Below are positions 149 through 23,625 of a DNA stretch of 24,011 nt, piece after piece (positions within the stretch are counted from its first letter, which is position 1; every line of letters starts with the position of its first letter). The position numbers and the translations under genes are program-made. This stretch comes from Candidatus Heimdallarchaeota archaeon (GTDB lineage Archaea > Asgardarchaeota > Heimdallarchaeia > JABLTI01). The DNA is taken from the NCBI GenBank assembly GCA_030614005.1, contig JAUWKS010000051.1, positions 1 through 24,011 of the forward strand, in the 5' to 3' direction. A model generated the notes under the pieces. That model ran no database searches and was not told the DNA's origin. It saw only the letters and a list, made by a program, of their open reading frames with translations.

Positions 149-1372
149 ATGTCTAAACCAGGATTAGAATCAAAAGTAATTGTTTTAGGATTATCACAGT
201 CTGGGAAAACATCTATTCGGCAGGTCATTTTTGAAGGGTTTGCACCTGATTCAACTGCTCTGAATCCAGCAACTGTTAGAATAAACAGAAAGCTGTTTAA
301 TTTAGCTGGAGGAGGCATAAATTTGTTTGATATTGGAGGTCAGACATCATATCTCAACGAAGTGTTTGATCAATATAAAGAAAGAACATTTACAAATGTT
401 AAAGCAGCCATTTTTGTTGTGGATATCTCAGATGCTGCGAATATTATGCGCTCAAAATACTATTTTGATTTAACGCTCAAAAATCTTGCATTATTAAGTA
501 AAAAGTCACGTATCTATATTTTTGCTCATAAAATGGATGTTGTCCAATTGAATAAAAGAAAAGTAATGGTTGAATCAATTGGAGAAATTTTTGAAACAGA
601 AAATTATGATAACGTGAGTATTTTTGGCACTTCTATCTTTGATCAGACTATTTGGGATGCAATGCAAAAAGTTCTTTCATTTGTTTATCCAAGAGATGAT
701 AGCAAAACTAAGGGTATCAAAGATATTGTAGGAAAATTCTCCTTAGAGTTTTTAGCTCTTTCAACTTCTCAAGGATTGGTTCTTTATTCTGAACCAGAAG
801 TTGACACTGGAGTTAATTATTCTAGACTGAAAAATGAGATTACTAAAGCTTATTTCCCAACCAGTTTTTTGAACCAAGCAATATTCACTATTGGAGAATT
901 TAATGCTTTTATGAAAGAATTGGATGATGACTTAGTTGTAACAACAGTATTTCCATCTGATCAAACAGTACCTAAGTCACAGGAATCCTTTACTCAATTG
1001 TGTGAACAAATTAAAACACTATTCAAACCAGATGAACTTCTAGGTCGTGCCAAAGTTAAAATGAGAAAGGCTTTAGAAGACCATCTGAAAAAGAATGGTT
1101 TGAAAAATGTTCATGAACTTGATAGAAAATTAGATGCAAAAATAAGTATCAAATGTGACGTTTGCGGAAAACAAATACAAAAATCGTTATTAGACGTTGC
1201 ACTTGAAAATTCCGAGCAACTTGAAAGAGGGTTAAAAATCTCTATTGGTTTCGGTATTTCTACTGTTGAAATGTATCCACTACACGATTGTATTGAAGGT
1301 ATTCGAGAAATTCCAGTTATTCTAGATGGAAATTTGGAATATCGTCGATATGATAAAAGTAGACCAATTTAA
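149..1372 (+). CDS. Rag/Gtr1-like small GTPase with roadblock/longin-like domain and C-terminal putative Zn-binding domain
   Basis: G1 GLSQSGKT, switch I PATV, G3 DIGGQ, G4 HKMD, G5 TSIFD (Gtr1/RagA pattern). Middle alpha/beta domain (FLALSTSQGLVLYS...LVVTTVF). C-terminal CDVC...HDC. RBS AGGTGA at 139-144, ATG at 149. Confidence 0.88.
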   Translation: MSKPGLESKVIVLGLSQSGKTSIRQVIFEGFAPDSTALNPATVRINRKLFNLAGGGINLFDIGGQTSYLNEVFDQYKERTFTNVKAAIFVVDISDAANIMRSKYYFDLTLKNLALLSKKSRIYIFAHKMDVVQLNKRKVMVESIGEIFETENYDNVSIFGTSIFDQTIWDAMQKVLSFVYPRDDSKTKGIKDIVGKFSLEFLALSTSQGLVLYSEPEVDTGVNYSRLKNEITKAYFPTSFLNQAIFTIGEFNAFMKELDDDLVVTTVFPSDQTVPKSQESFTQLCEQIKTLFKPDELLGRAKVKMRKALEDHLKKNGLKNVHELDRKLDAKISIKCDVCGKQIQKSLLDVALENSEQLERGLKISIGFGISTVEMYPLHDCIEGIREIPVILDGNLEYRRYDKSRPI

Positions 1373-1375
1373 GAT

Positions 1376-1434
1376 AAAAAATTGATGTCTTTTCAAATCT
1401 AATTATGATATGAAAAGGTTAATCTCTTTTTTTT
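1376..1434. terminator. Probable bidirectional terminator between the convergent GTPase genes
   Basis: A6 tract 1376-1381, stem CTTTTCA (1389-1395)/TGAAAAG (1411-1417) with further partial pairing, then T8 tract 1427-1434. Each strand therefore has a U-tract after the stem. Confidence 0.5.
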
Positions 1435-3247
1435 ATTTATTATTTTTTTCATCTTCTTTTTGCTGTACTAAAAATTCTACTAGCCTTTTTACATCGCCTT
1501 TTGAGAGAGTAAGGTTTTCATCTGAATCATCTTCTAAATTGGAAGCTAATAATTCAATCTGTTTTATGTTATATTTTCTTCTCTCTTCTTTCAAGCGGTC
1601 CATAAAACCTATTCTCGTTGGTTTTTTGACTTTTGATTCTACTTTCGTTTCAACTGTTAATTCAGGTTCAATAGACTCTTCAATAATAGGCGCTTGTATG
1701 GGTTCTTCTGTCTCTACAGATACCTCGGGTTGTTCAATTTCTTGCTTTACTTGCGGAGCAATTGATTCTGCTTTTGGTTCTTCTGTTTCCACAGATTCAA
1801 TATGGTCAACTTTTGATTCTGGTATTTTTTCAATTACCGGAGGAATAATTTCCTCTTTTACTTCTGGTGGTGTTTCTGTTACTGGTGGAACAATAGCAGC
1901 AGATATTAGTTCTAGTTCTGCTACAGGTGCTTGAATTGGTTCAGTTGGAGCACTTTTGAGTTCCTCTTTTAATTTATTTAAGAACGTAAAACTACTCTTT
2001 TCTTCTACTGATTCAACTTTTGCTGTTACATCAGGTTTAGGTGTTACTTTCTTGTCAACTTTTTGTTTAGGTGATTTTGTAGCAACTTCTTTAGGTTTTG
2101 TAGCTGTAGACAATACAATGCCCTCTATAGGAGCTTGTTGTGGCAAAGTTGTTCCATCTGTCGATTGAGAAAACTTGCGAATTAATTCATAAAATATCCT
2201 AGTTTTTTCTTCAGTAATAGCGGAGAATGAAGTAATGAGCAAAATATTATTTTCAAGTTTGAATACCATAGCATTTACTTTATTATTAGAAGAAGTGATA
2301 ATGGATGCAGTCGAGCTTTCACCAATTTCATTCTTCTCTTTGATAATTTTCTTGAATTCTTGTAAAGCCGAAATATAATCCATAGATTTCTCTGCACTAA
2401 CAGCTCCTTTTGAAGAGGTCCCAACAATGGGTGAAAACGTTTTGCCATCAATTAGAACTATTTCAACAATGTCATATTCAGATAAATCAAAATTAATTGC
2501 TAGTTTGCCAAAAGTGGGTAAAGTTGCTTGAGGATCAGGATTTAGAAATTCCAATAATTGTGCAATTCTGGGGTCTTCCTCATGTTCCATAATATAGCTT
2601 TGAAATTCATCACTTTCCTCTATTTTTTGACCTATGTTAGTAATTAGTTCAAAGCGTTTTGTATTCATTTTCACTTCATTCATCAAGGAATAAATGACTT
2701 CTTTTAAGCTTTCAGAATAATAAATACTAGATGGTTCAAAACGGATTTTGTATTTTTTATCATCAAATGAATCGGCTATATGACCAAGTAATGGAACTAA
2801 TTCCTCGGGGGGAATTAGATCTACTTTATGGCAAAGAACGGTAATTATACCTTTAGGATTTTCTTTCTTAAACTGACGAATGGTGAAACTAAATCTTCGT
2901 TCTGATTCTTCATATAGATTTGGTTTTGTCATATCTATAATCCAAAAAAGTAATTTCACATTTGAAAACACTAGATGTCGAAAATGTGTTACTGCTTCAT
3001 TCCAGTAATTTTCTTGTCCACCGGAATCGATTATCAAATTAGTTTTTTCTTCATCTAAATATTGACGTTCGTAATGCACTGTTGCCATGTAATCTTCGAC
3101 TTCACTAGGTTTTTTGCCAAAAAAGACTACATCCTTAATTGCTGTTTTTCCTGCTTGCTGTAGTCCCATAAAAAGTATTTTATCCTCTACCTTGGCATCG
3201 GTATCTTTAGATTTTAATTCGTCGATTAGATAGGACATTAGCATCAC
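1433..3247 (-). CDS. Rag/Gtr-like small GTPase with roadblock/longin-like domain and long Pro/Glu/Val/Lys-rich tail
   Basis: G1 GLQQAGKT, switch I MATV, G3 DSGGQ, G4 HKVD, G5 SSIY. Roadblock-like segment (DIVEIVLIDGKTFSPIVG...MVFKLENNILLITSF), then a low-complexity tail. Start is ambiguous (GTG 3247, ATG 3244 or ATG 3238). Confidence 0.88.
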   Translation of the reverse strand: MMLMSYLIDELKSKDTDAKVEDKILFMGLQQAGKTAIKDVVFFGKKPSEVEDYMATVHYERQYLDEEKTNLIIDSGGQENYWNEAVTHFRHLVFSNVKLLFWIIDMTKPNLYEESERRFSFTIRQFKKENPKGIITVLCHKVDLIPPEELVPLLGHIADSFDDKKYKIRFEPSSIYYSESLKEVIYSLMNEVKMNTKRFELITNIGQKIEESDEFQSYIMEHEEDPRIAQLLEFLNPDPQATLPTFGKLAINFDLSEYDIVEIVLIDGKTFSPIVGTSSKGAVSAEKSMDYISALQEFKKIIKEKNEIGESSTASIITSSNNKVNAMVFKLENNILLITSFSAITEEKTRIFYELIRKFSQSTDGTTLPQQAPIEGIVLSTATKPKEVATKSPKQKVDKKVTPKPDVTAKVESVEEKSSFTFLNKLKEELKSAPTEPIQAPVAELELISAAIVPPVTETPPEVKEEIIPPVIEKIPESKVDHIESVETEEPKAESIAPQVKQEIEQPEVSVETEEPIQAPIIEESIEPELTVETKVESKVKKPTRIGFMDRLKEERRKYNIKQIELLASNLEDDSDENLTLSKGDVKRLVEFLVQQKEDEKNNK

Positions 3248-3325: not shown

Positions 3326-6300
3326 TCATTGATATTGCTTGTTTTCCTCTTTGCTTTTCTTTAGGTTATTCTTAGCAGCAATCATTATAATTACAGAACG
3401 TCTGCGAACTTTTTCTAAAAGAACCTTAATTTCTGACAATTCTTTCTTTTCTTTTAGAGCAAGAATGAGCTCATCAATTTCAACGAACATAAATTCTTGA
3501 TTTGCAAGCATAAGTCCACCGAACTCTGTATCAGCAAGAATAATTAAGGAAAGGTTTTCAAATCCTCCTCTTGCGTTTTTATTTTCTAATTGAATACCAT
3601 GAATGAAACCAATCATATCTTCATTTGGTAAATTAATTGAACCAATCCTTCTTTTCTCATCATGTTCCTCAAACCCTAATGATGAGTATGCTTGATCTGA
3701 GATTTTCAATAAGAAATTATCAACACCAATACGCATTCTTCGACTATATTCAGGTTCTTCAAGTGATTGATCCATGATTAGTGGTACTGGTCCTTTTGCT
3801 TGGTCGAATAATGATAGAATAACACCTGGAGAAACTTTCTCAAAGTTCTTATCAATTTCATCTTCTGTGACTTTTTCCATTAACTCCTCAAATGGTCTTG
3901 CTCTTACAAGACGATAAATAACGAAACTTATTATTATTGAAAAAAGAAGACTTCCAGCAATAATTATTATAAGAATAAGAATTGGTAAACCACTGGGATC
4001 AATGATGAAAACGTTTTCAGTATATTCTGTCCCTAAAGGATCATATATATCGCTTCCTTGATAGCTTACAAAAATAACCACATAATCCATTTCTTCTGTC
4101 ATTTCAAATGACGTTTGTGCTAGTCCATTTGCATCTGTTGTAGTCGTTTTATTGATTATATCATTGTATGTTGTAGGTAATTCTGTTGTTGTGGCTACAT
4201 CTTTGTAGATAATGTAAATGCTGAAAGTGATATCTTGAAAAGCTACTGGTGTTCCATCAACTCTAACTAATTCAGCGTAAATAACTAAGTCGTTTCCATA
4301 AACTATTTCGCTACTTGAGACATTTACTCTTAAAATAATTGGAACAGCTAAAATTGTAGCTGATAGAGATGAAGTATCATTCATTGCTCCGAAATAATAA
4401 TTTGATTTAACTAATATTTCGAATAAATGAATGCCTTTTGCAGAAATGAAATCAGCTGAATTGAATGTTACTTCATAAATATAATTAACTGCATCAATTA
4501 ACTCATAAGTGATATCTTGATAGTTACCGTTAATTGAGATGTAATTTAATGCTTGAGCAGAAGAATTTGAATCGTCAAATAGTTTCAAGGATATTGATAT
4601 ATTTTCACCAAATACAACACTAATTGTTGAATCTAGAATAACAAGATTACCTTCCTCTCTTTGAATGAGTATATTGACCGTAATAGATTGTTTATGATCT
4701 TCGAATTGCCAGAATTGAAATTCAATGTATTTGTAAGCACTGTTAGTAACATTAGTTGCATCAATGGTAAACTCATAGGAAGTGGAATTTAGTTGTAGTT
4801 GTGATATTCCTAAATTGAGACTAGTATCTTCTTCTAAGTAAGCTATTGTTAAACCGGTAATAACAGTTTCATTTACTATATCTCTTACATCAACTGAAAA
4901 AGTAAATGATTCTCCATACTTCATAACATAATAATAGTCATCAGAGAAGTCTCCTGGTGTGAGATAATTAATTTCTATATCATCTACTGTGAAAACATAT
5001 TTTACTGTTATTTTGTTTGTATAAAGCCCTCCACCGGTATCATCCTCTAATTCAATGTAAAGAGTGTGAACACCATCGAGTGATGGAATAATGATATCAT
5101 ATGGAGCAGTCAATGTTTGGGAATCATTATCTGTATCCCATCTAAAACTGAATTCTTGTAAGTCAGCAGAGAGTACATTGAAATCAAGGATAGTATTCCC
5201 TCTAACATAAGTGTCATTTGTTATACCTATTAATTCATAATTTGGTGCTTCAAAATCTAGAAAGAATTTATACAAAATAGTGTATGAATTTCCAACTATG
5301 TCTTCAGTGAAGATTGTTATTGTGGCTTCAGTTTCGTCTAAATATTGAATACTTAATGTAGCAGAAAATTCAATGTTTTCAGGTGAAGCTGACCCTTCTA
5401 AATTCCATTGAGAAGTAATAATATCTATAGTGTCATCTGAGAGATCTTCCACTTTGAAATTCAAAAGAGTATCTTCATTAATTTTTGAATTGTTCTGAAT
5501 GAAGTTAAGGAATACAGTTGGGTGAGAATTATCAATAGTAATTGTTAAAGTTTCAAATTCTTCATTACCTAAAGTATCATTCGAGTAAATAACTAAAGTA
5601 GCTGTTCCTTCAATTGATGGTAGTGTAAAAGTATCATCAAATGAAATATAACTTGAACCATTCCATGAATAATAATTATGGAAAGTTGGATCGGCATCTG
5701 TAATTACACACGTTACCTCAGAGTTTGCAGGAACATAATTTGAACTGTCCGGTAAAGTAGCTAAACCACTAATACTCGAGATAGTAATAACAGGAGCTGA
5801 AATATCTATTGTGAATTCAATATAGTACCTGTAATAATTTCCTGCAATATCATAAGCAATAATTGTTAAATTATGAAGACCTTCAGATAGTGAGTTAAGA
5901 TAATAATCTAATGGTTGAGAAAAGGTTTGATTATCTTCTCCATCTATTGAAATAAAGATTTCCATATTTTCAGTTAGAGTCCAATTATCAGCTATTGTAA
6001 ATGATAATACCGTACTATCTAAAAATCTAGATTGATTATAATCAGGCCCAACAACAGATTGGACAATTGTTGGTGCTTCTTGATCTACAGTAAACTCGAA
6101 CACAAATTCATGAAGAACATCAACCGCATCTCCAACCCATACAGTTAGATAATAAGTACCAGGGGTTGAGGAAAGTGCATCAATACCTGATAATGTCAAT
6201 ATATTATTTCCATCAGGTACTCCGTCTTTTGGAGCATCATTTCCCCAAAAATATTTTACTGTACCATTATCATTGATTATTGTTATTTCAATAATTTCTT

Positions 6301-8026
6301 CACCCATATAATATGTACTGTTAACCATGTTTGTTAATTCAATCAGCAGATAAGTTGTATTTGTATAAAATGAATATACCTTAGAGATATCTTGACCAAA
6401 TGTATCATTGGCATATACAGTTAAATTATGCCAACCTTCAGATGTGGGCAAAGTAGTTCTCCAAATATTACCACTCACTTTAGTTGTCCAAGATGCAAAA
6501 CTGTCGCTATCCCATTTATATAAAACATCTATATCTGAATCATCGGTTATTTTAACATCAATATTTTTACCTAAAGGTTGTTGAGTATTATTTACAACAT
6601 TTTCTAAACTAATTACTGGTGCTGAATTATCAAAATTAAAGAAATATACTGAACTTGCAGCGCCAAAAACATCCGTTGTTTCAATAGTCAGATTATGTAT
6701 TTCATTAAAATCTTGATTAGGATAGATATCATAAGGTGAATTAAGGAGTATTTGAACACCACTGTTATCCCATTCATAAGTAGCAAAGATTACATCTACA
6801 ATGGTAAAATTGAGCAATTGCCCATCAGTTACTATCGAATTGTTAGCTGGAGAATTTAAAACAACATTATATTGCGATGTGTCATAACCAACAATAAATG
6901 TTACTTGAGCAATATTATCGAAGAAATCACTTGATTCTACAACCAAAGTATGCCAACCTATTGTCTCAGGTAGAGAAATTTCTACAGATGTTCCAAAACT
7001 AGTAAAAGAATCAGAATCCCATTTATACTTGTCTGATACAGAATTAGAGATAGTTATTGTTGCATTGGTTGATTCAAAATATCTAGTATTATTTGTAAAA
7101 CCAGTGATGTCAATTATTGGGTAACTGTCCTGATACATAAATAATTGCATACCAAATGATTCAATTTGATTGCCTAAATAGTAAGTATTATCAAAAGTAT
7201 CATTTGTATCATCAATACTCCAATCATGTAGATATGTAGTAGATCCAGTTCTAGCTTCAATATTATTATCACTGCCACCAATATATGATGCACTTGATAA
7301 CCTACATTCATAAGTTGTTCGTAATCTATAACCAGCAGGTATGAATAGAGTTGAGACGAGATCTATATATCCTTCCCAAGGATAATTCCAAGTATCATCA
7401 AATCTACTTTGCGTTGATCCAATAGATGTTGTTTGCCCATTGGCTGGATTAAATAATTCTATTGTTACTCTTAAAGTCCAGAGGTTATCTCTTGAGGGCC
7501 TTACATCACCGTTTACCATAAAGTATATTTTTCCTTGAATATAGGAATCTTCAGTAAAAACTGGACTAAAAACTGTTGAATTAATATTATCACCGTTTAT
7601 TGTATTATAGCTTCGCAATTGACCAAAAGTATCGAGTGGATGCCAAAAAACAGCCGGGGTAGAGGAACGATTCCATTGTCTAAATCTTGCATAAACATAG
7701 TCTGAAACAGAGCCTAAATCCTCGTATTGTTCACTTTCAAAGACATAACCATTTTCATCCAAATCAACAAAATTATTTTGAGTAAAATAACCAACAGTTT
7801 TATAGTTACCAGGAGTTTCAACATCATTTTCAACAATTGCTGTTGGAACAAAATCATCCTCTATTGGTTTTTCAGGTAGTGCTAGAGGTTCAATAGCTGA
7901 AATTGTTTCATTGGTATCACTTTCACTAGAAATTTCCGAATAATAATATAATGAACTTATACTTAAAATTACTAGAATTATACTTATAATCTTGGACTTA
8001 TTTTTAATCAACACATTTAACCTCAT
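3326..8026 (-). CDS. Large single-pass surface protein: signal/anchor, Ig-like repeats, transmembrane helix, cytoplasmic longin/uDENN (folliculin/SMCR8-like) domain
   Basis: N-terminal KNKSK + hydrophobic IISIILVILSISSLYYYS. About 8 repeats with Y-x-W ... G-x-H-x-L-x-[VI]-x-x-x-D-x-x-G-N. Many N-x-S/T sequons. TM LPILILIIIIAGSLLFSIIISFVIY (~3914-3988). Cytoplasmic ILSLFDQAKGPVP and NARGGFENLSLIILAD. The ORF track starts at TTG 8116; ATG 8026 or GTG 8014/TTG 8011 (after GAGGT) are more plausible. Stop is TGA at 3326-3328. Confidence 0.85.
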   Translation of the reverse strand: MRLNVLIKNKSKIISIILVILSISSLYYYSEISSESDTNETISAIEPLALPEKPIEDDFVPTAIVENDVETPGNYKTVGYFTQNNFVDLDENGYVFESEQYEDLGSVSDYVYARFRQWNRSSTPAVFWHPLDTFGQLRSYNTINGDNINSTVFSPVFTEDSYIQGKIYFMVNGDVRPSRDNLWTLRVTIELFNPANGQTTSIGSTQSRFDDTWNYPWEGYIDLVSTLFIPAGYRLRTTYECRLSSASYIGGSDNNIEARTGSTTYLHDWSIDDTNDTFDNTYYLGNQIESFGMQLFMYQDSYPIIDITGFTNNTRYFESTNATITISNSVSDKYKWDSDSFTSFGTSVEISLPETIGWHTLVVESSDFFDNIAQVTFIVGYDTSQYNVVLNSPANNSIVTDGQLLNFTIVDVIFATYEWDNSGVQILLNSPYDIYPNQDFNEIHNLTIETTDVFGAASSVYFFNFDNSAPVISLENVVNNTQQPLGKNIDVKITDDSDIDVLYKWDSDSFASWTTKVSGNIWRTTLPTSEGWHNLTVYANDTFGQDISKVYSFYTNTTYLLIELTNMVNSTYYMGEEIIEITIINDNGTVKYFWGNDAPKDGVPDGNNILTLSGIDALSSTPGTYYLTVWVGDAVDVLHEFVFEFTVDQEAPTIVQSVVGPDYNQSRFLDSTVLSFTIADNWTLTENMEIFISIDGEDNQTFSQPLDYYLNSLSEGLHNLTIIAYDIAGNYYRYYIEFTIDISAPVITISSISGLATLPDSSNYVPANSEVTCVITDADPTFHNYYSWNGSSYISFDDTFTLPSIEGTATLVIYSNDTLGNEEFETLTITIDNSHPTVFLNFIQNNSKINEDTLLNFKVEDLSDDTIDIITSQWNLEGSASPENIEFSATLSIQYLDETEATITIFTEDIVGNSYTILYKFFLDFEAPNYELIGITNDTYVRGNTILDFNVLSADLQEFSFRWDTDNDSQTLTAPYDIIIPSLDGVHTLYIELEDDTGGGLYTNKITVKYVFTVDDIEINYLTPGDFSDDYYYVMKYGESFTFSVDVRDIVNETVITGLTIAYLEEDTSLNLGISQLQLNSTSYEFTIDATNVTNSAYKYIEFQFWQFEDHKQSITVNILIQREEGNLVILDSTISVVFGENISISLKLFDDSNSSAQALNYISINGNYQDITYELIDAVNYIYEVTFNSADFISAKGIHLFEILVKSNYYFGAMNDTSSLSATILAVPIILRVNVSSSEIVYGNDLVIYAELVRVDGTPVAFQDITFSIYIIYKDVATTTELPTTYNDIINKTTTTDANGLAQTSFEMTEEMDYVVIFVSYQGSDIYDPLGTEYTENVFIIDPSGLPILILIIIIAGSLLFSIIISFVIYRLVRARPFEELMEKVTEDEIDKNFEKVSPGVILSLFDQAKGPVPLIMDQSLEEPEYSRRMRIGVDNFLLKISDQAYSSLGFEEHDEKRRIGSINLPNEDMIGFIHGIQLENKNARGGFENLSLIILADTEFGGLMLANQEFMFVEIDELILALKEKKELSEIKVLLEKVRRRSVIIMIAAKNNLKKSKEENKQYQ
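4981..7105 (-). repeat. Eight tandem ~90-aa Ig-like (bacterial Ig/Big-type) domain repeats within the surface protein
   Basis: Repeat ends seen in translation: GWHTLVVESSDFFDN, EIHNLTIETTDVFGA, GWHNLTVYANDTFGQ, GTYYLTVWVGDAVDV, GLHNLTIIAYDIAGN, GTATLVIYSNDTLGN, EATITIFTEDIVGN, GVHTLYIELEDDTGG. Each is preceded by a Y/F-x-W (or equivalent) strand. Confidence 0.75.
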
Positions 8027-8185
8027 TTTAACTTTTATTTGATACTTTGAGTCAATATCTATTCTATTGTAATATTTACCTGTGAAATAATAATCTTTAC
8101 AATCACTGTATTTCAATATTTGAAACTAAATAAATTGTGTAACAACTTATCTTTAAATTTAAGTAATTAGGAATAAAAGGTATTT

Positions 8186-15830: not shown

Positions 15831-17771
15831 TTGGAAAGGGAAAAAAAAGAAAAGGGGTGGGTTAAAATAAAAGTAAAATTCCAAGCAATTCTAATGATAC
15901 TAATTGTTTCACAAATTTCATGCAGTGGAGCTTGTTACTCATCATTTGATACAACAGAACAACCCAATTTTACTTTGGTGTTTAAGTCATCTAGTTGGGG
16001 ATTTAGAACAGATTATTGAAACTTACTCATACAACCACTAGCAAAAATTGGAATAAACGTTTATGTTAGTATACATGATTGGTATTGGGGATACTATGGT
16101 TTCCGAGATTACGATATTGTTTATGCTTCTTTCGCTGGTAATGGTGCTGATCCAGACTTTACCGGTGTATACAACGAAAATGGTTCTCTCAATATATTTG
16201 GTTACCACACCGATATGGACTACAATGAAACATTAGGTACAGGTATAAATGAATGGTATATGAAACAAGGCAATTTAATTATGCCTCCGGACAGTAATGC
16301 AAGAATTCAACACTATTGGGACTGGGAGAACTATCTTATGGATAAAATTTGTCCTATGTTACCAACTTTTGCACCAAATTTCTATGAAGCATATTGGGAT
16401 ACTCTGGAAGGATATAACATTTCTAAAGGCATTTTACAGTCTTGGGGTAATATGCATTGGGAATCTAGCCATCAGGGACAGCTAAATACAGATGAATTTG
16501 TTATTTCTGATTATCCATGGTCTGATTTGAATCCATTATTCCAAGATGACACCTCATCAAAGAAAATTAGTGATGCAATAATGGACTCGCTAATTTACTA
16601 TGACAATGATTTAAGCATCCATCCACACTTAGCAGAAAGTTATACGTTCATCAATGACACAACAATTGAAATCGTTTGTCGTGAAGGAATTAAATGGCAA
16701 TCAGATTATGAGGGCAATTTTACCAACGAATTTTTTGATGCAGAAGATATTTACTTCACACTCTACTCTTGGGCAACAGTCTCAAATGATGTAGCCAAAT
16801 ATGATTGGATAAAGAAGATGGAAATTGTCGATGAGATGACTATTAAACTCTACATTGATGGTGACCCATCAACTCAACAAAGTGATCCTTTTGCACCTGC
16901 TCTCACTTACTTAGCAACAAAAATTTTACCAGAACATTATTTGAACCAAACACAATTAGCAGATGGAGTTACTCCGGACATAACACATGCTTCATGGAAT
17001 ACATTTGCAACCCACTGTTTCGGAACTGGTCTATTCGAACTCGGTACCTTCACTGAAGGTGTTGAAACAGAATTAGATGTTTTCGATAGTTGCTGGTTGT
17101 TAGATGTTACTGTAGATAAAACCAACATGGACTTTGTTAACAGATTTGGCGACTTCTCTAACATAATGGATAAATTAAGAATAAAAATCCCCTCTAATGA
17201 TTTAATTCGGTTAAACCTTTTTACATCCGGAAGGTTAGATCACTACGATTTTAATGATCTTCATTCTTTCAATTATAATACCCAAGGAATAGAAGGAATT
17301 AGTTTTCAAAAAGAACTACGATATTACCTTGGATTCTTTGGATTTAATATGCGTCCAGTTAGACCGATTATCGGTAATCCCGAACCATGTGAGGATGATC
17401 CAACAATAACTAAAGGACTTGCTATTAGGAAAGCTATCTGTTACGTAACTAACCGTGAAGAAATAAACGATATAGTTCATGGAGGAGAATATTCAATTAT
17501 AAATTGCCCAATTTATGAGCGAATGGGTATCTGGTGTAATCCAAATATCATAAAATATGATCATGATTTTGAAATGGCTAAATATTACATGGAATTAGCT
17601 GGTTATGATATTCCCGATTATATCTACAATCTGCCTACAAATACACTTTGGATATATATTTTAGCAGGGATTTCCTATGGAATTGGAACTGGAGGAGTAA
17701 TTTTTGGTTTCATTTTCATTCGACGAAAAAAATCAAAGAAGCCAATTGATAACAATTTACAAACTATTTAA
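15831..17771 (+). pseudogene. Family-5 (Opp/Dpp-type) ABC substrate-binding protein, copy 1, interrupted by an in-frame TGA at 16017-16019
   Basis: ORF-track pieces 15831..16019 and 16215..17771 are in the same frame (offset 384). Reading through gives RTDY*NLLIQPLAKIGINV...GADPDFTGVYNENGSLNIFGYHTDM, collinear with RPDYGNLLKQQLARIGINV in the paralogs. C-terminal TM + RRKK. Confidence 0.85.
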
Positions 17772-17832
17772 TTAGATAATTTAACAATAAAACATGGAGA
17801 ATAAGAGTAAAAAAATAGGATTTGTGAAAAAT

Positions 17833-19728
17833 ATGGAGAGAATTAGATTTAAACAATTTATTGGACTATTAATAATAATGTTATTTGCAACGAATTCCAG
17901 TTTTCTTTTTGCTTCAGAAGGTGAAGCGATAGAGCCTTATTTTACTTTGGTTTTCAAAACAAATGGTGGTGGAGTTAGACCAGATTATGGTAACTTCCTC
18001 AAACAACATCTATCAAGAGTCGGAATAAATGTTGATATTATTGTGCAAGATTGGCCAACTTTTGTGAGTGAAATAACAGTCTACCATGATTTCGATATTT
18101 GTTATGTCGCTCTCTCAGGCAGTGGTGCAGATCCAGATTTTACTGGTGTATATAACGAAAATGGTTCTCTAAACTTGTTTGGATACCACACTGATATGGA
18201 CTATAACGAAACTCTTGGCACTGGTTTAAATGAATGGTATATGAAACAAGGCAACTTAATTATGCCTCCTGACAGTAATGCAAGAATTCAACATTACTGG
18301 ATTTGGGAACAATATTTAATGGATAAAATTTTACCCTGTCAACCAACATTCGCACAAAAAGAATACATTGCTTATTGGTCAAATTTAGAAGGTTGGAATA
18401 TAGAAGATGGTATGAAGCAATCATGGGGTAAAATGAACTTTACCGGCACACATGATGGTCAAATAGATCCAACAGAAATAGTTACAGCTAACGCAGCTTG
18501 GTCAAATCTCAACCCATTATTCCAAGATGATACCGTCTCAAATCAAATCAGTAATGCAGTAATGGATTCTCTAATTTATTACGATGAGGATTTAAGCGTC
18601 CATCCGCATTTAGCAGAGAGTTATACTTTTGTTAATGATACAACTGTTGAAATCGTTTGTCGTGAAGGAATAAAATGGCAGGAAGATCCAGATGGATTAT
18701 TCCCAGGAGAAGAATTTGATTCAGAAGACATTTTCTTCACACTATCCGCTTGGGCAACAGTCTCAGATGACACATCTAATTTTGATTGGATTAAGAAAAT
18801 AGAAATTGTTGATTCAACTACAATCAAACTTTACATTGATGGTGACCCATCAACAGAAGTAAATGATGCTTTCGCCCCCGTTATCACTTACTTTGCAAAA
18901 GAAATTCTCCCAGAACATTACTTGAATCAAACACAATTAGTAGATGGAGTTACTCCAGACATAACACATGCTTCTTGGAATACATTTACAACCCACTGTT
19001 TTGGAACTGGTTTATTCGAACTCGGTACCTTCACTGCAGGTGTTGAAACTGAATTAGATGTTTTCGATGACTGCTGGTGGTTAGATCCCGCTGTAGACAA
19101 ATCCAACATGGATTTTGTAGACAGATTTGGTAATTTTACAAGTGACTTAGACACCTGGAGAATCAGAATAATTCCAGACCAACAAACCGCTCTATTTGAA
19201 TTTAATGCCGGAAAGACTGATATCCAAGAAATTACTCAATTTCCGGAGACACGTGAAGATTATACTGAAAATCCAGACTTCGAAGTCCAAAATGAAACCA
19301 GATTCTATTTGGGATTCTTCGGTTATAACATGCGTCCTACCCGACCTGTTATTGGTAACCCAGCTCCTGCACCTGGAGATCCAACAATATCTGTTGGGTT
19401 AGCAGTCAGAAAAGCTATCTCTTACGCACTGGATAGAGTTGAAATCAATAATGTTATTCACAGAGGTGAATACACAATCACAGATCACCCAATCTACTTA
19501 AAATTGGGGATATGGTGTAATCCAAACATTATTCGATACAACCACGATCTCGACTTAGCACGAGAATATATGGAAATTGCAAGTGGACCCACATCAATAG
19601 TAACCACTACGTCATTAGAATCTATAATCGTAGGAATGAATTGGTTCTATTCTCTTAGTGGATTAATCATTTTTCTTGGAATTATAATTATAATCAGAAA
19701 AAAAGGTGAAAAATATGGTAAAAAATAG
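17833..19728 (+). CDS. Family-5 ABC substrate-binding protein, copy 2 (circularly permuted, C-terminal TM anchor)
   Basis: LNPLFQDD...DSLIYYD...HPHLAESY, EGIKWQ...FDSEDIFFT, GTGLFEL, VRKAISYALDR, YNHDLDLAREYM. Signal peptide and C-terminal TM + RKK. ATG 17833 (GTGAAAAATATG, as in copy 3) is preferred over 17794. Confidence 0.9.
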   Translation: MERIRFKQFIGLLIIMLFATNSSFLFASEGEAIEPYFTLVFKTNGGGVRPDYGNFLKQHLSRVGINVDIIVQDWPTFVSEITVYHDFDICYVALSGSGADPDFTGVYNENGSLNLFGYHTDMDYNETLGTGLNEWYMKQGNLIMPPDSNARIQHYWIWEQYLMDKILPCQPTFAQKEYIAYWSNLEGWNIEDGMKQSWGKMNFTGTHDGQIDPTEIVTANAAWSNLNPLFQDDTVSNQISNAVMDSLIYYDEDLSVHPHLAESYTFVNDTTVEIVCREGIKWQEDPDGLFPGEEFDSEDIFFTLSAWATVSDDTSNFDWIKKIEIVDSTTIKLYIDGDPSTEVNDAFAPVITYFAKEILPEHYLNQTQLVDGVTPDITHASWNTFTTHCFGTGLFELGTFTAGVETELDVFDDCWWLDPAVDKSNMDFVDRFGNFTSDLDTWRIRIIPDQQTALFEFNAGKTDIQEITQFPETREDYTENPDFEVQNETRFYLGFFGYNMRPTRPVIGNPAPAPGDPTISVGLAVRKAISYALDRVEINNVIHRGEYTITDHPIYLKLGIWCNPNIIRYNHDLDLAREYMEIASGPTSIVTTTSLESIIVGMNWFYSLSGLIIFLGIIIIIRKKGEKYGKK

Positions 19729-21583
19729 GTTAAAACAATTCATTGGTATATCAATAATAATTTTATTTACTACGAATTCCAGTTTCCTTTTTGCTTCAGA
19801 TGGAGAAGCAATAGAGCCTTATTTTACTTTGGTTTTCAAAACAAACGGTGGAGGAGTTAGACCAGACTATGGCAACCTCCTCAAACAACAACTCGCAAGA
19901 ATCGGAATAAACGTTGATGTTATTATTCAAGATTGGCCAACTTTTGTTGGTGAATTGATCGCTTACCGTGATTTCGATATTTGTTATGTCGGCCTCACTG
20001 GTGACGGTAGTGCAAACCCAGACTTTACTGGTGTCTACAATGTAAATGGTTCTCTAAACTTGTTTGGTTATGATACAAGTATGGATTACAATGAAACATT
20101 AGGTACAGGATTAAACGAATGGTACATGAAAGAGGGAAGACAAATACTTCCAGCTTACTCTCAAGAGAGACTTGAACATTATTGGGCTTGGCAACAACAT
20201 TTGATGGATAATCTTTTACCATGTTTACCCACTTTTGTGCCGAAAATCTATACTGCTTATTGGTCCAATTTAGAAGGATATAATATGTCTGATGGTCTTC
20301 TCCAATCATGGGGAAAAATGAGCTGGGATGGAAATCATTTAGGACAAACAAACACAAATGAAGTAGTAATTTCTGATGCCGCTTGGTCAGATTTAACTCC
20401 CTTTTATCAGGATGATACTTCATCTAGTTTTATTAGTGATGCTCTAATGGATACAATGATCTATTATGATACAGACATGACACCTTGGCCACATTTAGCA
20501 ACAAATTGGACACATATCACCGATACACAAGTGAGAGTTAAACTTAGGGAAGGAATAAAATGGCAACCAGATTATGAAGGTAATTTTACTAATGAATACT
20601 TTGATGCAGAAGATGTCTATTTCAGTTATACTTTATGCGATAGGATAGTTGGTTCACCCTGTGCCCCTTGGCTGGATCATATGGAAATAGTTGATGATCA
20701 TACAATTGATTTCTTTATAGATGGAAATGATTATGAACCTGGAGCACAACCTTCAACTCTTTATCTTGAAAGTTTTGAAAGAAAAATATTGCCCGAACAC
20801 TATCTCAATCAAACCCAATTTCCAGATGGATCTCCCGATATAACTCATGAATCTTGGAGGCTCTTTGCCACAAAAGCATTTGGAACAGGATTATTTTCGT
20901 TAACACACTTTGAGCAAGGTGAAGAAACTATACTTACAGTTAATCCTGAATGTTGGAGATTAAATACTTCAATAACTAGTGATCCTGCATTAGAATGGGA
21001 ACGAAGATTTGGTGATTTTGCTGGTGGACTTAACCAATTACGAATAAGAATTATTCCAAATCAGCAAACCGCTCTACTAGAATTTGAAGCCGGTAAAACA
21101 GATATCCAAGAAATTACTCAATTTTCAGAAACACGTAAAGAAATGATTGCTAGTCCAGACTTTGCTGTCCAAAATGATATCACATTCTATTTTGGTTTCT
21201 TTGGATATAACATGTGCCCAGTAAGACCAGTTATCGGCAACCCTGATGACGCTCCTGGCGATGCTTCAATGACTGTAGGTCTAGCTGTTAGAAAAGCAAT
21301 TAGCTATGCGATAGATTTAGAGGAAATGAATAACATCATTCATGGTGGAGAATATGCTATTACTTATCATCCAATATACATGAAACTGGGTATTTGGTGT
21401 AATCCAAATATCATAAAATATGAACACAATTTGTCTCAAGCAATAGAATACATGACTCTTGCGGGAGGTTATACCCCAACAAATTATACTTCAAAAACAG
21501 GAATAAATTGGATCTATTCCCTAAGTGGAATATTCATTTTACTTGGTATACAAATTATAATTAGAAAGAAGATCGGGAAATAG
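19715..21583 (+). CDS. Family-5 ABC substrate-binding protein, copy 3 (circularly permuted, C-terminal TM anchor)
   Basis: Same motif set as copy 2. GGTGA RBS, then ATG 19715 overlapping the end of copy 2 (translational coupling). C-terminal GINWIYSLSGIFILLGIQIIIRKK. Confidence 0.9.
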   Translation: MVKNRLKQFIGISIIILFTTNSSFLFASDGEAIEPYFTLVFKTNGGGVRPDYGNLLKQQLARIGINVDVIIQDWPTFVGELIAYRDFDICYVGLTGDGSANPDFTGVYNVNGSLNLFGYDTSMDYNETLGTGLNEWYMKEGRQILPAYSQERLEHYWAWQQHLMDNLLPCLPTFVPKIYTAYWSNLEGYNMSDGLLQSWGKMSWDGNHLGQTNTNEVVISDAAWSDLTPFYQDDTSSSFISDALMDTMIYYDTDMTPWPHLATNWTHITDTQVRVKLREGIKWQPDYEGNFTNEYFDAEDVYFSYTLCDRIVGSPCAPWLDHMEIVDDHTIDFFIDGNDYEPGAQPSTLYLESFERKILPEHYLNQTQFPDGSPDITHESWRLFATKAFGTGLFSLTHFEQGEETILTVNPECWRLNTSITSDPALEWERRFGDFAGGLNQLRIRIIPNQQTALLEFEAGKTDIQEITQFSETRKEMIASPDFAVQNDITFYFGFFGYNMCPVRPVIGNPDDAPGDASMTVGLAVRKAISYAIDLEEMNNIIHGGEYAITYHPIYMKLGIWCNPNIIKYEHNLSQAIEYMTLAGGYTPTNYTSKTGINWIYSLSGIFILLGIQIIIRKKIGK

Positions 21584-21592
21584 TATTCCTAA

Positions 21593-21607
21593 TTCTTTTA
21601 TTTTTTT
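21593..21607 (+). terminator. Oligo-T terminator after copy 3
   Basis: TTCTTTTATTTTTTT shortly after the TAG at 21583; archaeal-type U-rich termination signal. Confidence 0.45.
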
Positions 21608-21658
21608 GCGCGTGTTAAATTTCAGTCGAAATCCTTTAGTTTTTGGCATTAAAGAAAG

Positions 21659-21685
21659 TAATATAAACCATAGAGGTTTATATTA
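21659..21685. promoter_or_regulatory. Second copy of the palindromic operator/TATA upstream of peptide-binding gene 4
   Basis: TAATATAAACC-ATAGA-GGTTTATATTA (11-bp arms here). Downstream TATTATTATTTAAACAAC also resembles TATTACTATTTAGAACAAC after the first copy. Confidence 0.75.
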
Positions 21686-21759
21686 TTATTTAAACAACGA
21701 GCATTATAAAATATTTTAGAAGTTGATAAATATAGGAGAAAAAAGGAAAGGTGATAAAA

Positions 21760-23625
21760 ATGGCGAGGTTTAGATTAAAACAAATTGTTGGATTATCAAT
21801 AATAGTTTTATTTGCTATAAATTCTTGTTCTCTTTTTGTTTCAGAAAGTGAAGCAGTAGAACCTATTTTTACTTTGGTGTACAAAACAAATGATCAAGGA
21901 GTTAGACTAGATTATGGTAACTTCCTCAAACAACATTTAGCAAGAATTGGGATAAACGTTGAAATAATTGTTCTAGATTCCATATTATCTTTTACTTGTG
22001 AGTATCTTGGTGAACTTGATTACGATATAATTTATCTCTCTTTAAGTGGTGGTGCTGCAGATCCAGATTTTACTGGCATATATAATGAAAACGGTTCTTT
22101 GAATGTATTTGGTTATCGAACTGAAATGGACTACAATGAAACACTGGGAACTGGCGTAAATGAGTGGTACATGAGACAAGGCAGATTAATTATGCCTCCC
22201 GACAGCTCTGAAAGAGTTCAACATTACTGGGCATGGGAACAACATTTGATGGATGAAATTTGTCCTATGTTACCTACTTTCGCCCCGAAAGCCTACACTG
22301 CTTACTGGTCCAACTTAGAAGGATATGATATGCAAGAAGGTATAAAACAGTCATGGGGTAAAATGGAATTTTCAGGCCTCCATGATGGTCAAATTAAAAA
22401 CACAGAACTAGTAACAACTGACACAGCTAGGGGAGATTTTAACCCATTATTCCATAGTTATTCGTCATCAAAAACAATTAGTAAAGCAATATTGGACTCT
22501 CTTATATTTTATGATAGTGATTTAAGCGTTCATCCACACTTAGCTGAAAGCTATACATTCATCAATGACACAACTGTTGAAATCGTTTGTCGTGATGGAA
22601 TCAAATGGCAGGATGACCCAGATGGATTATTCTTAGATGAATATTTTGATGTTGAAGATGTTTACTTCACACTCTACTCATGGGCAAATCTCTCGAACGA
22701 CCAATATGGTTATGACTGGATAAAGAAGATGGAAATTATCGATGAAATGACTATGAGAATTTATATTGACGGTGACCCAAAAACACCAGAAAATGATCCC
22801 TTTGCACCTGCTCTCCCTCACTTAGCAACGAAAATTCTCCCAGAGCATTACTTGAACCAAACACAATTAATCGATGGAGTTACTCCAGATATCACAGATG
22901 CTTCTTGGGATACCTTTGAAACAAATTGTTTTGGAACAAGTTTATTCGAACTTGATACCTTCACTGAAGATGTTGAAACAGAATTAATCGTATTCAATGA
23001 CTGTTGGTGGTTAGATGATAATATAGACAAAACCAACATGGATTTTGTAAACAGATTCGGTGACTTTACTGGTGGATTAGATTCTTGGAGAATCAGAATT
23101 TTTCCAAATACACAAACTGCTTTATTAGAATTTGAAGCTGGTAGAACTGACCTCGAAGAAATTACCCCATTTTCAGCAAAACGTAAAAAATATGTTGCCA
23201 GCTCAGACTTTGATGTCCAAAACGACACCATGTTCTATTTGGGATTCTTCGGTTTCAACATGCATACCCGCCGACCTGTTATTGGCAATCCAAATCCAGC
23301 ACCTGGTGATCCCTCTATGTCTATTGGATTAGCAGTAAGAAAAGCTATTTCATATGCTCTTGACAGAGAGGAAATTAATAACGTTGTTCATGGAGGAGAA
23401 TACACAATTACAAATCATCCTATCTACTCAAAAATGGGAATATGGTGTAATCCTAATATTATTCAATATAATCATGATCTTGACAAAGCAAGAGAATTCT
23501 TGGCTATCGCAGGATATGAACTAGTCTTAATGGCTAGCATACTTATAGGATTGAATTGGATCTATACATTTAGTGGGATTTTTAGTTTTCTCGGGATTTT
23601 AATTATTGTCAGAAAGAAAAAATGA
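21760..23625 (+). CDS. Family-5 ABC substrate-binding protein, copy 4 (circularly permuted, C-terminal TM anchor)
   Basis: Same motif set. AGGTGA RBS at 21749-21754, ATG 21760. C-terminal GLNWIYTFSGIFSFLGILIIVRKKK, TGA. Confidence 0.9.
   Translation: MARFRLKQIVGLSIIVLFAINSCSLFVSESEAVEPIFTLVYKTNDQGVRLDYGNFLKQHLARIGINVEIIVLDSILSFTCEYLGELDYDIIYLSLSGGAADPDFTGIYNENGSLNVFGYRTEMDYNETLGTGVNEWYMRQGRLIMPPDSSERVQHYWAWEQHLMDEICPMLPTFAPKAYTAYWSNLEGYDMQEGIKQSWGKMEFSGLHDGQIKNTELVTTDTARGDFNPLFHSYSSSKTISKAILDSLIFYDSDLSVHPHLAESYTFINDTTVEIVCRDGIKWQDDPDGLFLDEYFDVEDVYFTLYSWANLSNDQYGYDWIKKMEIIDEMTMRIYIDGDPKTPENDPFAPALPHLATKILPEHYLNQTQLIDGVTPDITDASWDTFETNCFGTSLFELDTFTEDVETELIVFNDCWWLDDNIDKTNMDFVNRFGDFTGGLDSWRIRIFPNTQTALLEFEAGRTDLEEITPFSAKRKKYVASSDFDVQNDTMFYLGFFGFNMHTRRPVIGNPNPAPGDPSMSIGLAVRKAISYALDREEINNVVHGGEYTITNHPIYSKMGIWCNPNIIQYNHDLDKAREFLAIAGYELVLMASILIGLNWIYTFSGIFSFLGILIIVRKKK

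What the first reader, a model, noticed from the sequence alone, without database searches (positions are those of the whole stretch)
15831..23625. All four family-5 peptide-binding proteins are circularly permuted
Seen: each mature protein begins with the segment that normally ends OppA/DppA (FTLVFK...LKQHL.R.GINV.I...DW...FDI......DPD...R..HY...Q..LM..LP..P......AY..NLEG). The canonical N-terminus follows (LNP...D..S..I...MDSLI.YD..L..HPHLAESY...EGIKW...FD.ED), and the chain ends at Y.HDL..A.EY...AG. Established: in standard family-5 proteins the order is LDP...LAESW...GTGPF...VRQAI...YDPEKAKELL.EAG, then the GI.V/DPD/R...Y segment. The permutation creates a new C-terminus that leads straight into a TM anchor. 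I am not aware of a described permuted, C-anchored class.
Basis: partly seen in the sequence, partly recalled or inferred. Interest (0 to 1): 0.7.

Follow-up and report, generated by a model that had tools for sequence, protein, structure and literature searches.

The report
Circularly permuted Asgard peptide-type binding proteins
Four neighbouring genes of a Heimdall-group Asgard archaeon encode membrane-tethered nutrient-binding proteins of the well-known OppA/DppA class whose last third has moved in front of the first two thirds without changing the fold, a natural rewiring that I could not find described for this class.

Summary
Window 15831-23625 holds four tandem + strand paralogues (51-67% identical) of family-5 (Pfam PF00496, cluster C) ABC substrate-binding proteins. 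Three are intact; the first has one in-frame TGA.

In each protein, Pfam profile positions 290-358 lie at residues ~40-116 and positions 2-284 at residues ~260-596. A high-confidence AlphaFold2 model puts residues 227-601 on E. coli DppA 1-343 (Z 21.9, rmsd 2.5 A). The N-terminal block folded alone lands on DppA 335-480. Against a doubled canonical relative, BLAST gives one collinear alignment across the junction.

All family-5 genes found in this 90%-complete genome are permuted. All 150 listed cluster representatives (152 below E 1e-30), bar one or two at the bottom of the list, share the order.

- The C-terminal anchor is not a product of the permutation. Canonical-order Asgard relatives carry the same tail, and C-anchored archaeal OppA proteins are known.
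- The order has switched more than once. Permuted and canonical relatives 63-67% identical exist, and a single origin is rejected (AU p 0.0002).

Six literature searches found natural permutation described only for a sugar-binding class (T. pallidum MglB-2). This scan has noted the same phenomenon before on other DNA. Ligand and transport role are inferred, not shown.

The parts
15831..17771 (+). g1: permuted family-5 binding-protein gene, interrupted by one in-frame TGA
   Evidence: One reading frame, 15831-16016 and 16020-17771, with TGA at codon 63. Block B runs to about 16496 and block A covers 16497-17609. PF00496 scores 85.7 bits, profile 2-284 at residues 200-535 of the second part. It keeps 55/55 invariant and 100/106 near-invariant family residues.
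16017..16019 (+). in-frame TGA in g1 (D-Y-stop-N, where paralogues read D-Y-G-N)
   Evidence: Sequence read directly. The laid public contigs were too fragmentary to confirm or refute the base.
17794..19728 (+). g2: intact permuted binding protein, 644 aa (the protein modelled)
   Evidence: ORF. PF00496 scores 115 bits in two stretches. AlphaFold2 mean pLDDT 89.3, pTM 0.82.
17794..17925 (+). g2 export signal: basic n-region, hydrophobic core FIGLLIIMLFA, likely cleavage near FLFA/SEGEA
   Evidence: Read from the sequence. Helix 12-38 with low pLDDT in the model. No signal-peptide predictor was available, so this is inferred.
17926..18471 (+). g2 block B (residues 45-226): the part that ends canonical family-5 proteins (second half of lobe 2 plus the return to lobe 1)
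   Evidence: Pfam profile 290-355 at residues 51-116. The block-B profile matches B. subtilis AppA 361-503 of 520, E 3.6e-4. Folded alone it aligns to DppA 335-480 and AppA 350-490, Z 7-8, and all 50 top matches are the C-terminal thirds of family-5 proteins.
18472..19584 (+). g2 block A (residues 227-597): the part that begins canonical proteins (lobe 1, its sub-domain, first half of lobe 2)
   Evidence: Pfam profile 2-276 at residues 269-596. Model residues 227-601 align to DppA 1dpe 1-343, Z 21.9, rmsd 2.5 A, 322 residues.
19585..19725 (+). g2 Ser/Thr-rich linker, hydrophobic helix and basic tail (RKKGEKYGKK)
   Evidence: Sequence. Helix 615-642 in the model. No match to Heimdall-CTERM at E up to 10.
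19706..21583 (+). g3: intact permuted binding protein (625 aa from GTG; an ATG lies 9 nt downstream); overlaps the end of g2
   Evidence: ORF. Block B at 19808-20362 and block A at 20363-21469. PF00496 scores 116.4 bits: profile 3-282 at residues 261-593 and 290-358 at 41-109.
21751..23625 (+). g4: intact permuted binding protein (624 aa)
   Evidence: ORF. Block B at 21853-22407 and block A at 22408-23520. PF00496 scores 122.6 bits: profile 2-282 at residues 260-593 and 290-355 at 40-107. Against a doubled canonical protein, one HSP covers 40-590.

Best explanation
The four genes are old tandem paralogues encoding Sec-exported, C-terminally tethered substrate-binding proteins of the OppA/DppA/NikA class (cluster C, Pfam PF00496), in which the chain is circularly permuted. 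Write the canonical mature protein as A-B. A corresponds to DppA 1-343: lobe 1, its extra sub-domain and the first half of lobe 2. B corresponds to DppA ~335-507: the second half of lobe 2 and the strand that returns to lobe 1. These proteins read signal peptide - B - A - linker - hydrophobic tail. The old C- and N-termini, neighbours in lobe 1, are joined near residue 226. The new termini lie in the surface loop after the conserved helix that ends in AG. The three-domain fold is retained. Up to this point the statement is shown. What follows is inferred. The proteins sit on the cell surface, capture peptides or similar oligomers, and hand them to Opp/Dpp-type ABC permeases encoded elsewhere in the genome (for example contig C116). 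In this they would resemble the multiple orphan OppA paralogues of other organisms. The order most likely arose by internal duplication (A-B-A-B) followed by loss of the outer A and B, with export signal and tail kept in place.
For: Swapped order by sequence:
- Pfam stretches lie in swapped order.
- Sequence searches of the PDB place block A on the start of solved family-5 chains and block B on their end.
- BLAST of g2 against canonical P0269 gives two HSPs in swapped order, 218-596 to 44-364 and 33-132 to 369-467.
- Against the doubled P0269, one collinear HSP covers 33-596 (E 2e-21); g4 gives 40-590 (E 2e-24).

Fold:
- The model has mean pLDDT 89.3.
- Residues 227-601 lie on DppA 1-343, Z 21.9, rmsd 2.5 A.
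- Block B folded alone lies on DppA 335-480.

Not an artefact:
- Each ORF runs from an export signal to a hydrophobic, basic tail and a stop codon.
- The same order is found in 6 close paralogues and 3 distant ones of this genome.
- It is found in 32 loci of other MAGs, mostly as single genes.
- Of the 150 listed cluster representatives (152 below E 1e-30), all but two at the bottom share the order or are fragments of it: P0269 is canonical and P0263 (463 aa) matched block A only and was not looked at further.

Transport role:
- Other permuted subfamilies lie directly beside an OppB-type permease (L051) or an OppD-type ATPase (L050).
- This genome has Opp-type permeases and ATPases, and a permuted binding-protein gene lies 7 kb from them on C116.
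- The conserved DPD motif of block B aligns with the DPD of a solved DppA.
- An M17 aminopeptidase gene lies 2.5 kb upstream in the window.
Against: - No permease or ATPase gene lies on the 24-kb contig.
- No OppB/C-like gene was found within 8 kb of window-type genes in 32 related loci. The link to a transporter is therefore indirect for this subfamily.
- Some relatives are fused to TSP3 repeats or carry a cytoplasmic Cys/His-rich tail, which hints at roles other than transport.
- No ligand, expression or localisation data exist for these genes.
- The whole-fold superposition under a permutation-aware aligner was not run. The two blocks were matched separately, and block B only at Z 7-8, from a model with pLDDT 67.7.
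- g1 carries a stop codon.
Confidence: 0.8

Rival explanations
1. The proteins are permuted family-5 folds but no longer serve an ABC importer. They would act instead as surface receptors, sensors, adhesins or abundant envelope proteins.
For: The array is orphan, and there is no OppB/C-like gene within 8 kb in 32 related loci. Relatives are fused to TSP3 repeats. The paralogue on C64 has a cytoplasmic RING/zinc-ribbon-like tail behind the membrane helix. The neighbours in the window are surface-type proteins. In P. syntrophicum a family-5 binding protein of similar size and with helices at both ends is the most abundant, glycosylated protein of a cell without a detected S-layer (PMC11284389); its chain order was not checked.
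Against: Orphan binding-protein paralogues that share one permease are common in this family (established knowledge). Ligand-side motifs and the bilobate fold are strongly conserved: 55 invariant and 106 near-invariant columns. Other permuted subfamilies sit in Opp/Dpp operons. The genome has far more binding proteins than permease pairs.
Confidence: 0.17
2. The permutation is an artefact of reading a tandem array out of register: the end of one canonical gene joined to the start of the next. Alternatively it is a mis-assembly.
For: The genes are tandem and similar. Public contigs of a related population show one joint between paralogues (16111 to 18093).
Against: Stop codons, export signals and hydrophobic tails bound each unit as B-A. 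The B-to-A junction lies inside an open frame and is modelled with pLDDT above 90. The same order is seen in single-copy loci of many independent assemblies and in nearly all of the 150 listed cluster representatives.
Confidence: 0.01
3. The N-terminal block is an extra, duplicated piece added to an otherwise complete canonical protein. This would be a partial duplication, not a permutation.
For: Permutation by duplication passes through such intermediates. Long relatives with two matched stretches exist (P0121, P0129).
Against: In all four genes the Pfam match ends at profile position 276-284 of 368, immediately before the linker and tail. There is no second copy of block B, and the length (about 550 mature residues) fits one fold.
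Confidence: 0.01

Closest known systems
Canonical cluster C / family-5 substrate-binding proteins (Pfam PF00496): E. coli DppA (1DPE/1DPP, 8Z1Z), B. subtilis AppA (1XOC), C. jejuni NikZ (4OET), E. coli GsiB/YliB (1UQW)
   Same: Same fold and domain make-up (Z 20-23 over ~320 residues). Same sequence family, above the Pfam cut-off. Other permuted subfamilies sit in the same kind of operon partnership.
   Different: The chain order is B-A instead of A-B. The new termini lie in a lobe-2 loop, so the tether leaves from lobe 2 rather than lobe 1. No curated NCBIfam model reaches its cut-off.
C-terminally anchored archaeal oligopeptide-binding proteins (S. solfataricus, A. pernix; reviewed in PMC3387779)
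   Same: N-terminal Sec signal plus a C-terminal membrane segment, preceded in g2 and g3 by a Ser/Thr-rich stretch. Archaeal surface-tethered peptide-type binding proteins.
   Different: Nothing in that review says these proteins are permuted. The Sulfolobales and Desulfurococcales relatives I examined are in canonical order. The characterised proteins themselves were not examined here.
TpMglB-2 (Tp0684) of Treponema pallidum, 'Type Ic / Cluster Bc' (PMC4990184)
   Same: A natural circular permutation of an ABC ligand-binding protein with the fold and ligand binding retained. Its authors note that members are mostly tethered proteins.
   Different: It belongs to a different structural cluster (B, sugar-binding, two domains) and has different cut points. 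It is not homologous at the family level. This is an analogy, not membership.
Heimdall-CTERM / Loki-CTERM / PGF-CTERM sorting tails (NCBIfam NF045529, NF033507, TIGR04126)
   Same: Tripartite tail of motif, hydrophobic helix and basic end. Paralogue C16 (23.0 bits) and relatives (L055 27.5, L063 22.8) match Heimdall-CTERM near or above its cut-off of 24.
   Different: The four window tails lack the PGF-like motif and give no Heimdall-CTERM match at E up to 10. They have G-(I/L/M)-N-W-(I/F)-Y instead. No exosortase/archaeosortase (PF09721) match was found in this genome (the control shows this model is weakly sensitive).

Membership tests
Pfam PF00496 SBP_bac_5 / cluster C substrate-binding proteins | Significant match to the family profile above the curated cut-off | tested here: met
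   115, 116.4, 122.6 and 85.7 bits against a cut-off of 32.4.
Pfam PF00496 SBP_bac_5 / cluster C substrate-binding proteins | Collinear match over the whole profile (canonical chain order A-B) | tested here: not met
   Profile 2-284 lies at residues ~260-596 and profile 290-358 at residues ~40-116. Only a doubled canonical sequence aligns collinearly. The proteins are therefore homologous members with a permuted topology.
Pfam PF00496 SBP_bac_5 / cluster C substrate-binding proteins | Bilobate three-domain fold of DppA/OppA | tested here: met
   Model pLDDT 89.3. Residues 227-601 align to DppA 1-343, Z 21.9, rmsd 2.5 A. Block B alone aligns to DppA 335-480, Z 7-8. A permutation-aware whole-chain superposition was not run.
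Pfam PF00496 SBP_bac_5 / cluster C substrate-binding proteins | Encoded with Opp/Dpp-type permeases (BPD_transp_1) and ATPases (oligo_HPY) | tested here: inconclusive
   None on this contig or within 8 kb in 32 related loci. They are present elsewhere in the genome and directly beside other permuted subfamilies (L050, L051).
Pfam PF00496 SBP_bac_5 / cluster C substrate-binding proteins | Binds peptide, nickel, opine or oligosaccharide ligand in the cleft | not testable with these tools
   Only motif conservation could be seen: the DPD of block B aligns with the DPD of Pseudoalteromonas DppA.
Archaeal C-anchored oligopeptide-binding class (Sulfolobus/Aeropyrum type) | SPase I-type signal plus a C-terminal membrane segment preceded by a Ser/Thr-rich stretch | tested here: inconclusive
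   Signal-like N-termini and hydrophobic, basic tails are present in all four. The Ser/Thr-rich linker is clear in g2 and g3 but not in g4. No predictor was run and no processing data exist.
NCBIfam NF045529 Heimdall-CTERM surface proteins | Match to the C-terminal sorting-domain model at 24 bits or more | tested here: not met
   No match at E up to 10 for the four window tails. Paralogue C16 scores 23.0 and relative L055 27.5 bits.
TpMglB-2-like 'Cluster Bc' permuted binding proteins | Cluster B (MglB-type) fold with the TpMglB-2 strand order | tested here: not met
   All structural and sequence matches are to cluster C / family-5 proteins. The resemblance is in principle only.

The most novel reading that the evidence does not exclude
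Family-5 binding proteins form a natural, so far undescribed 'cluster C-permuted' topology that has arisen or reverted repeatedly in Asgard archaea, by swapping two blocks between a fixed export signal and a fixed C-terminal sorting tail. The window's lineage is an old, wholly permuted and mostly orphan branch that has replaced the canonical order in this genome altogether. Moving the tether from lobe 1 to lobe 2 may be what selection acts on in surface-tethered binding proteins.
Probability: 0.55. Interest if true: 0.7.

Novelty: new variant of a known kind. Interest (0 to 1): 0.6.

Why it matters
Family-5 binding proteins are among the most studied parts of ABC importers and a standard scaffold for biosensors. 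A large natural set of permuted members would be useful in several ways:
- It includes pairs 63-67% identical in the two chain orders, which gives a ready-made experiment on how chain topology affects folding, hinge motion and docking to the permease.
- It shows that domain-based annotation under-describes these proteins: Pfam reports a truncated 'middle' match.
- It bears on how Asgard archaea, which live on peptides, display their main nutrient receptors. The most abundant surface glycoprotein of the cultured P. syntrophicum is a family-5 protein of the same size and end architecture, and its chain order should now be checked.

Tried and rejected
- Reads for the TGA in g1. One search for runs and one laying of four metagenome runs gave only short, low-depth contigs. 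No listed piece spans 16017, and 210 difference rows were not shown. The TGA is therefore neither confirmed nor refuted. No RNA holder was listed.
- Doubling test with ten distant canonical Asgard proteins against the family profile. It gave junction-spanning hits for only two of them and fragments for the rest. The test became clean only with P0269 and with the close pairs L053/L059 and P0271/P0277.
- Block B folded alone gave a mediocre model (pLDDT 67.7; residues 140-188 unstructured) and only Z 7-8. I used it for location, not as proof of fold.
- Exosortase/archaeosortase PF09721 gave no match in this genome. The control found it in only 1 of 14 genomes, so this says little.
- phmmer with this genome's OppB/C/D/F against the flanks of 32 related loci found no permease, only generic ABC ATPase hits in three loci. 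A single-sequence query may miss divergent permeases.
- NCBIfam has no model that reaches its cut-off for the four proteins.
- Six literature searches found no description of a permuted family-5 protein. The library holds open-access papers only.
- I could not obtain the sequence of P. syntrophicum DSAG12_03090, so I could not check its chain order.
- Range outside Asgard archaea could not be tested directly, because the genome search is centred on the window's phylum.
Full report
**What is there**

The window is a whole 24,011-base contig (C101) of a 3.6-Mb assembly that is 90% complete. The organism is an Asgard archaeon:
- The left half of the contig encodes Gtr1/RagA-, Arf- and Ras-type GTPases.
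- The closest relatives of the genes in question come from MAGs labelled Heimdallarchaeota.

Between 15831 and 23625 lie four + strand ORFs:
- g1, 15831-17771
- g2, 17794-19728
- g3, 19706-21583
- g4, 21751-23625

The spacing is a 22-base gap, a 23-base overlap and a 167-base gap. The genes are old paralogues, 51-67% identical to each other. g1 has one in-frame TGA at 16017-16019, reading D-Y-stop-N where the paralogues read D-Y-G-N. It still keeps all 55 invariant and 100 of 106 near-invariant residues of the family. It is therefore a very recent pseudogene, a base-calling error or a read-through case. Public contigs could not settle which.

**Is the chain order really swapped?**

Five independent comparisons say yes.

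1. *Pfam.* PF00496 matches all four proteins above its cut-off, but in two stretches. Profile positions 2-284 of 368 lie at residues ~260-596, ending just before the hydrophobic tail. Positions 290-358 lie at residues ~40-116. For g1 the second stretch was not recovered on the part behind the TGA, but the family's own block-B model matches it.

2. *Solved structures, by sequence.* g2 residues 229-349 match NikZ 8-123, and residues 535-597 match HbpA 255-341. A profile of the N-terminal block matches B. subtilis AppA 361-503 of 520 (E 3.6e-4).

3. *Predicted fold.* An AlphaFold2 model of g2, built on 54 homologues, has mean pLDDT 89.3 and pTM 0.82.
   - Residues 227-601 superpose on E. coli DppA 1-343 with Z 21.9 and rmsd 2.5 A over 322 residues. 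All 50 listed entries align the same way.
   - The N-terminal block folded alone is a weaker model (pLDDT 67.7).
   - All 50 of its best matches are the C-terminal thirds of family-5 proteins, for example DppA 335-480 and AppA 350-490, at Z 7-8.

4. *BLAST, single against doubled.* BLAST of g2 against the nearest canonical-order protein found (P0269, collinear Pfam 2-357) gives two HSPs in swapped order. Against P0269 written twice it gives one collinear HSP, 33-596, E 2e-21. g4 gives 40-590, E 2e-24.

5. *Gene boundaries.* Each unit starts with a basic-then-hydrophobic export signal. Each ends in a hydrophobic helix, a basic tail and a stop codon. The B-to-A junction lies inside the open frame, in a region modelled at pLDDT above 90. 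This excludes an out-of-register reading of the tandem array. It also excludes a partial duplication, because there is no second block B before the tail.

**How widespread is it?**

- *This genome.* Every PF00496 match stops at profile position ~280-287, or is the separate 289-358 piece lying upstream of such a match. There are six close paralogues: the four here, one on C16 and one on C64. There is a 28%-identical one on C81, and two of another subfamily on C59 and C71. All are in B-A order with a C-terminal tail. No collinear family-5 gene was found.
- *The protein library.* A profile search of 1.84 billion cluster representatives lists the best 150 hits (152 lie below E 1e-30). Almost all are collinear with the permuted query or are fragments of it. 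The first canonical-order protein, P0269, appears at E 1e-31. One 463-aa hit near the bottom (P0263) matched block A only and was not looked at further.
- *Named sources.* Close relatives come from sources labelled as Asgard lineages: Heimdall-, Thor-, Gerd- and Promethearchaeota. A few MAGs carry other labels.
- *The Asgard phylum sample.* Across 121 genomes, both collinear matches (1-365) and truncated matches (2-28x) occur. Seven of the truncated ones that I fetched are all permuted at the same loop.

**More than one origin, and an anchor independent of the order**

I built a tree on the shared block A of 15 permuted and 11 canonical Asgard proteins.
- The most parsimonious reading needs four changes of order.
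- Well-supported branches force at least two.
- Holding the permuted proteins together costs 74.7 log-likelihood units (AU p 0.00017).

The sample is small and was chosen by Pfam score, so the number of events is uncertain. A single origin is nevertheless rejected.

Two close pairs make the point directly:
- L053 (permuted) and L059 (canonical) give two HSPs of 44% identity in swapped order. Against the doubled L059 they give one HSP of 505 columns.
- P0271 (permuted, beside an OppD-type ATPase) has only four full-length relatives. Its next relatives, P0276 and P0277, are 63-67% identical but in canonical order, and 114 of 119 further hits are canonical.

P0271 and P0277 both carry a signal peptide and a C-terminal PGF-like/hydrophobic/basic tail. 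So does the canonical L063. The two blocks have therefore been swapped between fixed ends.

C-terminally anchored archaeal oligopeptide-binding proteins are established knowledge (PMC3387779). NCBIfam curates a 'Heimdall-CTERM' tail that relatives match: L055 at 27.5 bits, C16 at 23.0, against a cut-off of 24. The four window tails do not match it.

In contrast to the young events above, the window's own clade has no close canonical relative; the nearest is about 22% identical. Its permutation is old.

**What the proteins probably do**

Shown:
- They are homologous to family-5 binding proteins, and the fold is retained.
- They carry export and tether signals.
- They are strongly conserved across the family.

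Inferred:
- They act as surface receptors that hand peptides or similar oligomers to Opp/Dpp-type permeases.

For the transport role:
- Permuted proteins of other subfamilies lie directly beside an OppB-type permease (L051) or an OppD-type ATPase with the oligo_HPY domain (L050).
- This genome has Opp-type permeases and ATPases, and a permuted binding-protein gene lies 7 kb from them on C116.
- The conserved DPD motif of block B aligns with the DPD of a solved DppA. From memory, this region supplies the aspartate that holds the peptide's amino group. I did not test that here.
- An M17 aminopeptidase gene lies 2.5 kb upstream in the window.

Against the transport role:
- The array is orphan, and no OppB/C-like gene lies within 8 kb in 32 related loci.
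- Relatives are fused to TSP3 repeats.
- The C64 paralogue has a cytoplasmic Cys/His-rich tail resembling a RING or zinc ribbon, below Pfam cut-offs.

I put a non-transport surface role at about one in six.

**Comparison with what is known**

Natural circular permutation of an ABC ligand-binding protein is documented for T. pallidum MglB-2. Its authors proposed the subclass 'Cluster Bc' and noted that its members are mostly tethered (PMC4990184). That is a different structural cluster.

Six full-text searches found nothing on a permuted family-5 protein.

The glycoproteomics paper on P. syntrophicum treats its dominant family-5 binding protein as an ordinary MppA-type protein. That protein has about 590 residues and helices at both ends (PMC11284389). 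I could not check its chain order.

This scan has reported permuted family-5 proteins before on other DNA, from Asgard archaea, Haloquadratum and Anaerolineae. I re-tested only the claims about Asgard proteins and about repeated switching.

**Verdict**

The idea that the permutation created the anchor is not supported, and neither is the idea of a single class. This is a new topological variant of a well-known family. I could not find it described, and its functional consequences are unknown.

Noticed in passing
window 16017-16019: g1 carries a single in-frame TGA, yet it keeps every invariant residue of the family. It may be a very recent pseudogene, a sequencing error or a read-through case.
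   Followed up: partly
G000 contig C64:7369-9618 (+), held as L003:673-2922; L018 in another MAG has the same length: A window-type permuted binding protein has about 110 extra residues behind the membrane helix. They are Cys/His-rich and resemble a RING or double zinc ribbon below Pfam cut-offs (zf-RING_16 23.9 bits against 27.4). This would be a surface binding domain wired to a cytoplasmic zinc finger.
   Followed up: partly
L029:163-3250, L032:9757-11837, L034:4001-5056, L036:12992-14985: Tandem 'mini' genes of ~290-355 aa lie beside full-length permuted genes in related Heimdall MAGs. They hold block B plus only Pfam positions ~202-287, which amounts to lobe 2 alone. None was seen in the window's genome.
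   Followed up: partly
P0121 (1772 aa), P0124 (1233 aa), P0048; window 14529-15494 (-): Permuted binding domains occur fused to bacterial TSP3 (calcium-binding) repeats in metagenomic relatives. The gene just left of the array in the window is itself a TSP3-repeat protein.
   Followed up: no
L004:1423-1572 (C16 tail), L055:2988-3137, L063:463-612: The C-terminal tails of relatives match NCBIfam Heimdall-CTERM (PGF-like motif), which suggests sorting or processing rather than a plain membrane helix. The four window tails have G-(I/L/M)-N-W-(I/F)-Y instead. No PF09721 exosortase match was found in this genome.
   Followed up: partly
window 16111 / 18093: A contig of a related marine-sediment population (run X3) joins 16111 to 18093, skipping 1981 bases between equivalent points of g1 and g2. 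This could be copy-number variation of the array or an assembly chimera.
   Followed up: no
window 149-1372 (+), 1433-3247 (-), 8186-8929 (-): Two Gtr1/RagA-family GTPase genes (one of 604 aa with a long extension) and a Ras-like GTPase flank a 1596-aa Ig/PKD-like surface protein (3326-8116, -).
   Followed up: no
G000 contig C40:19055-19633 (-): A 193-aa open frame holds only the last part of block A plus the tail of a C59/C71-type permuted binding protein. It is probably a gene remnant.
   Followed up: no
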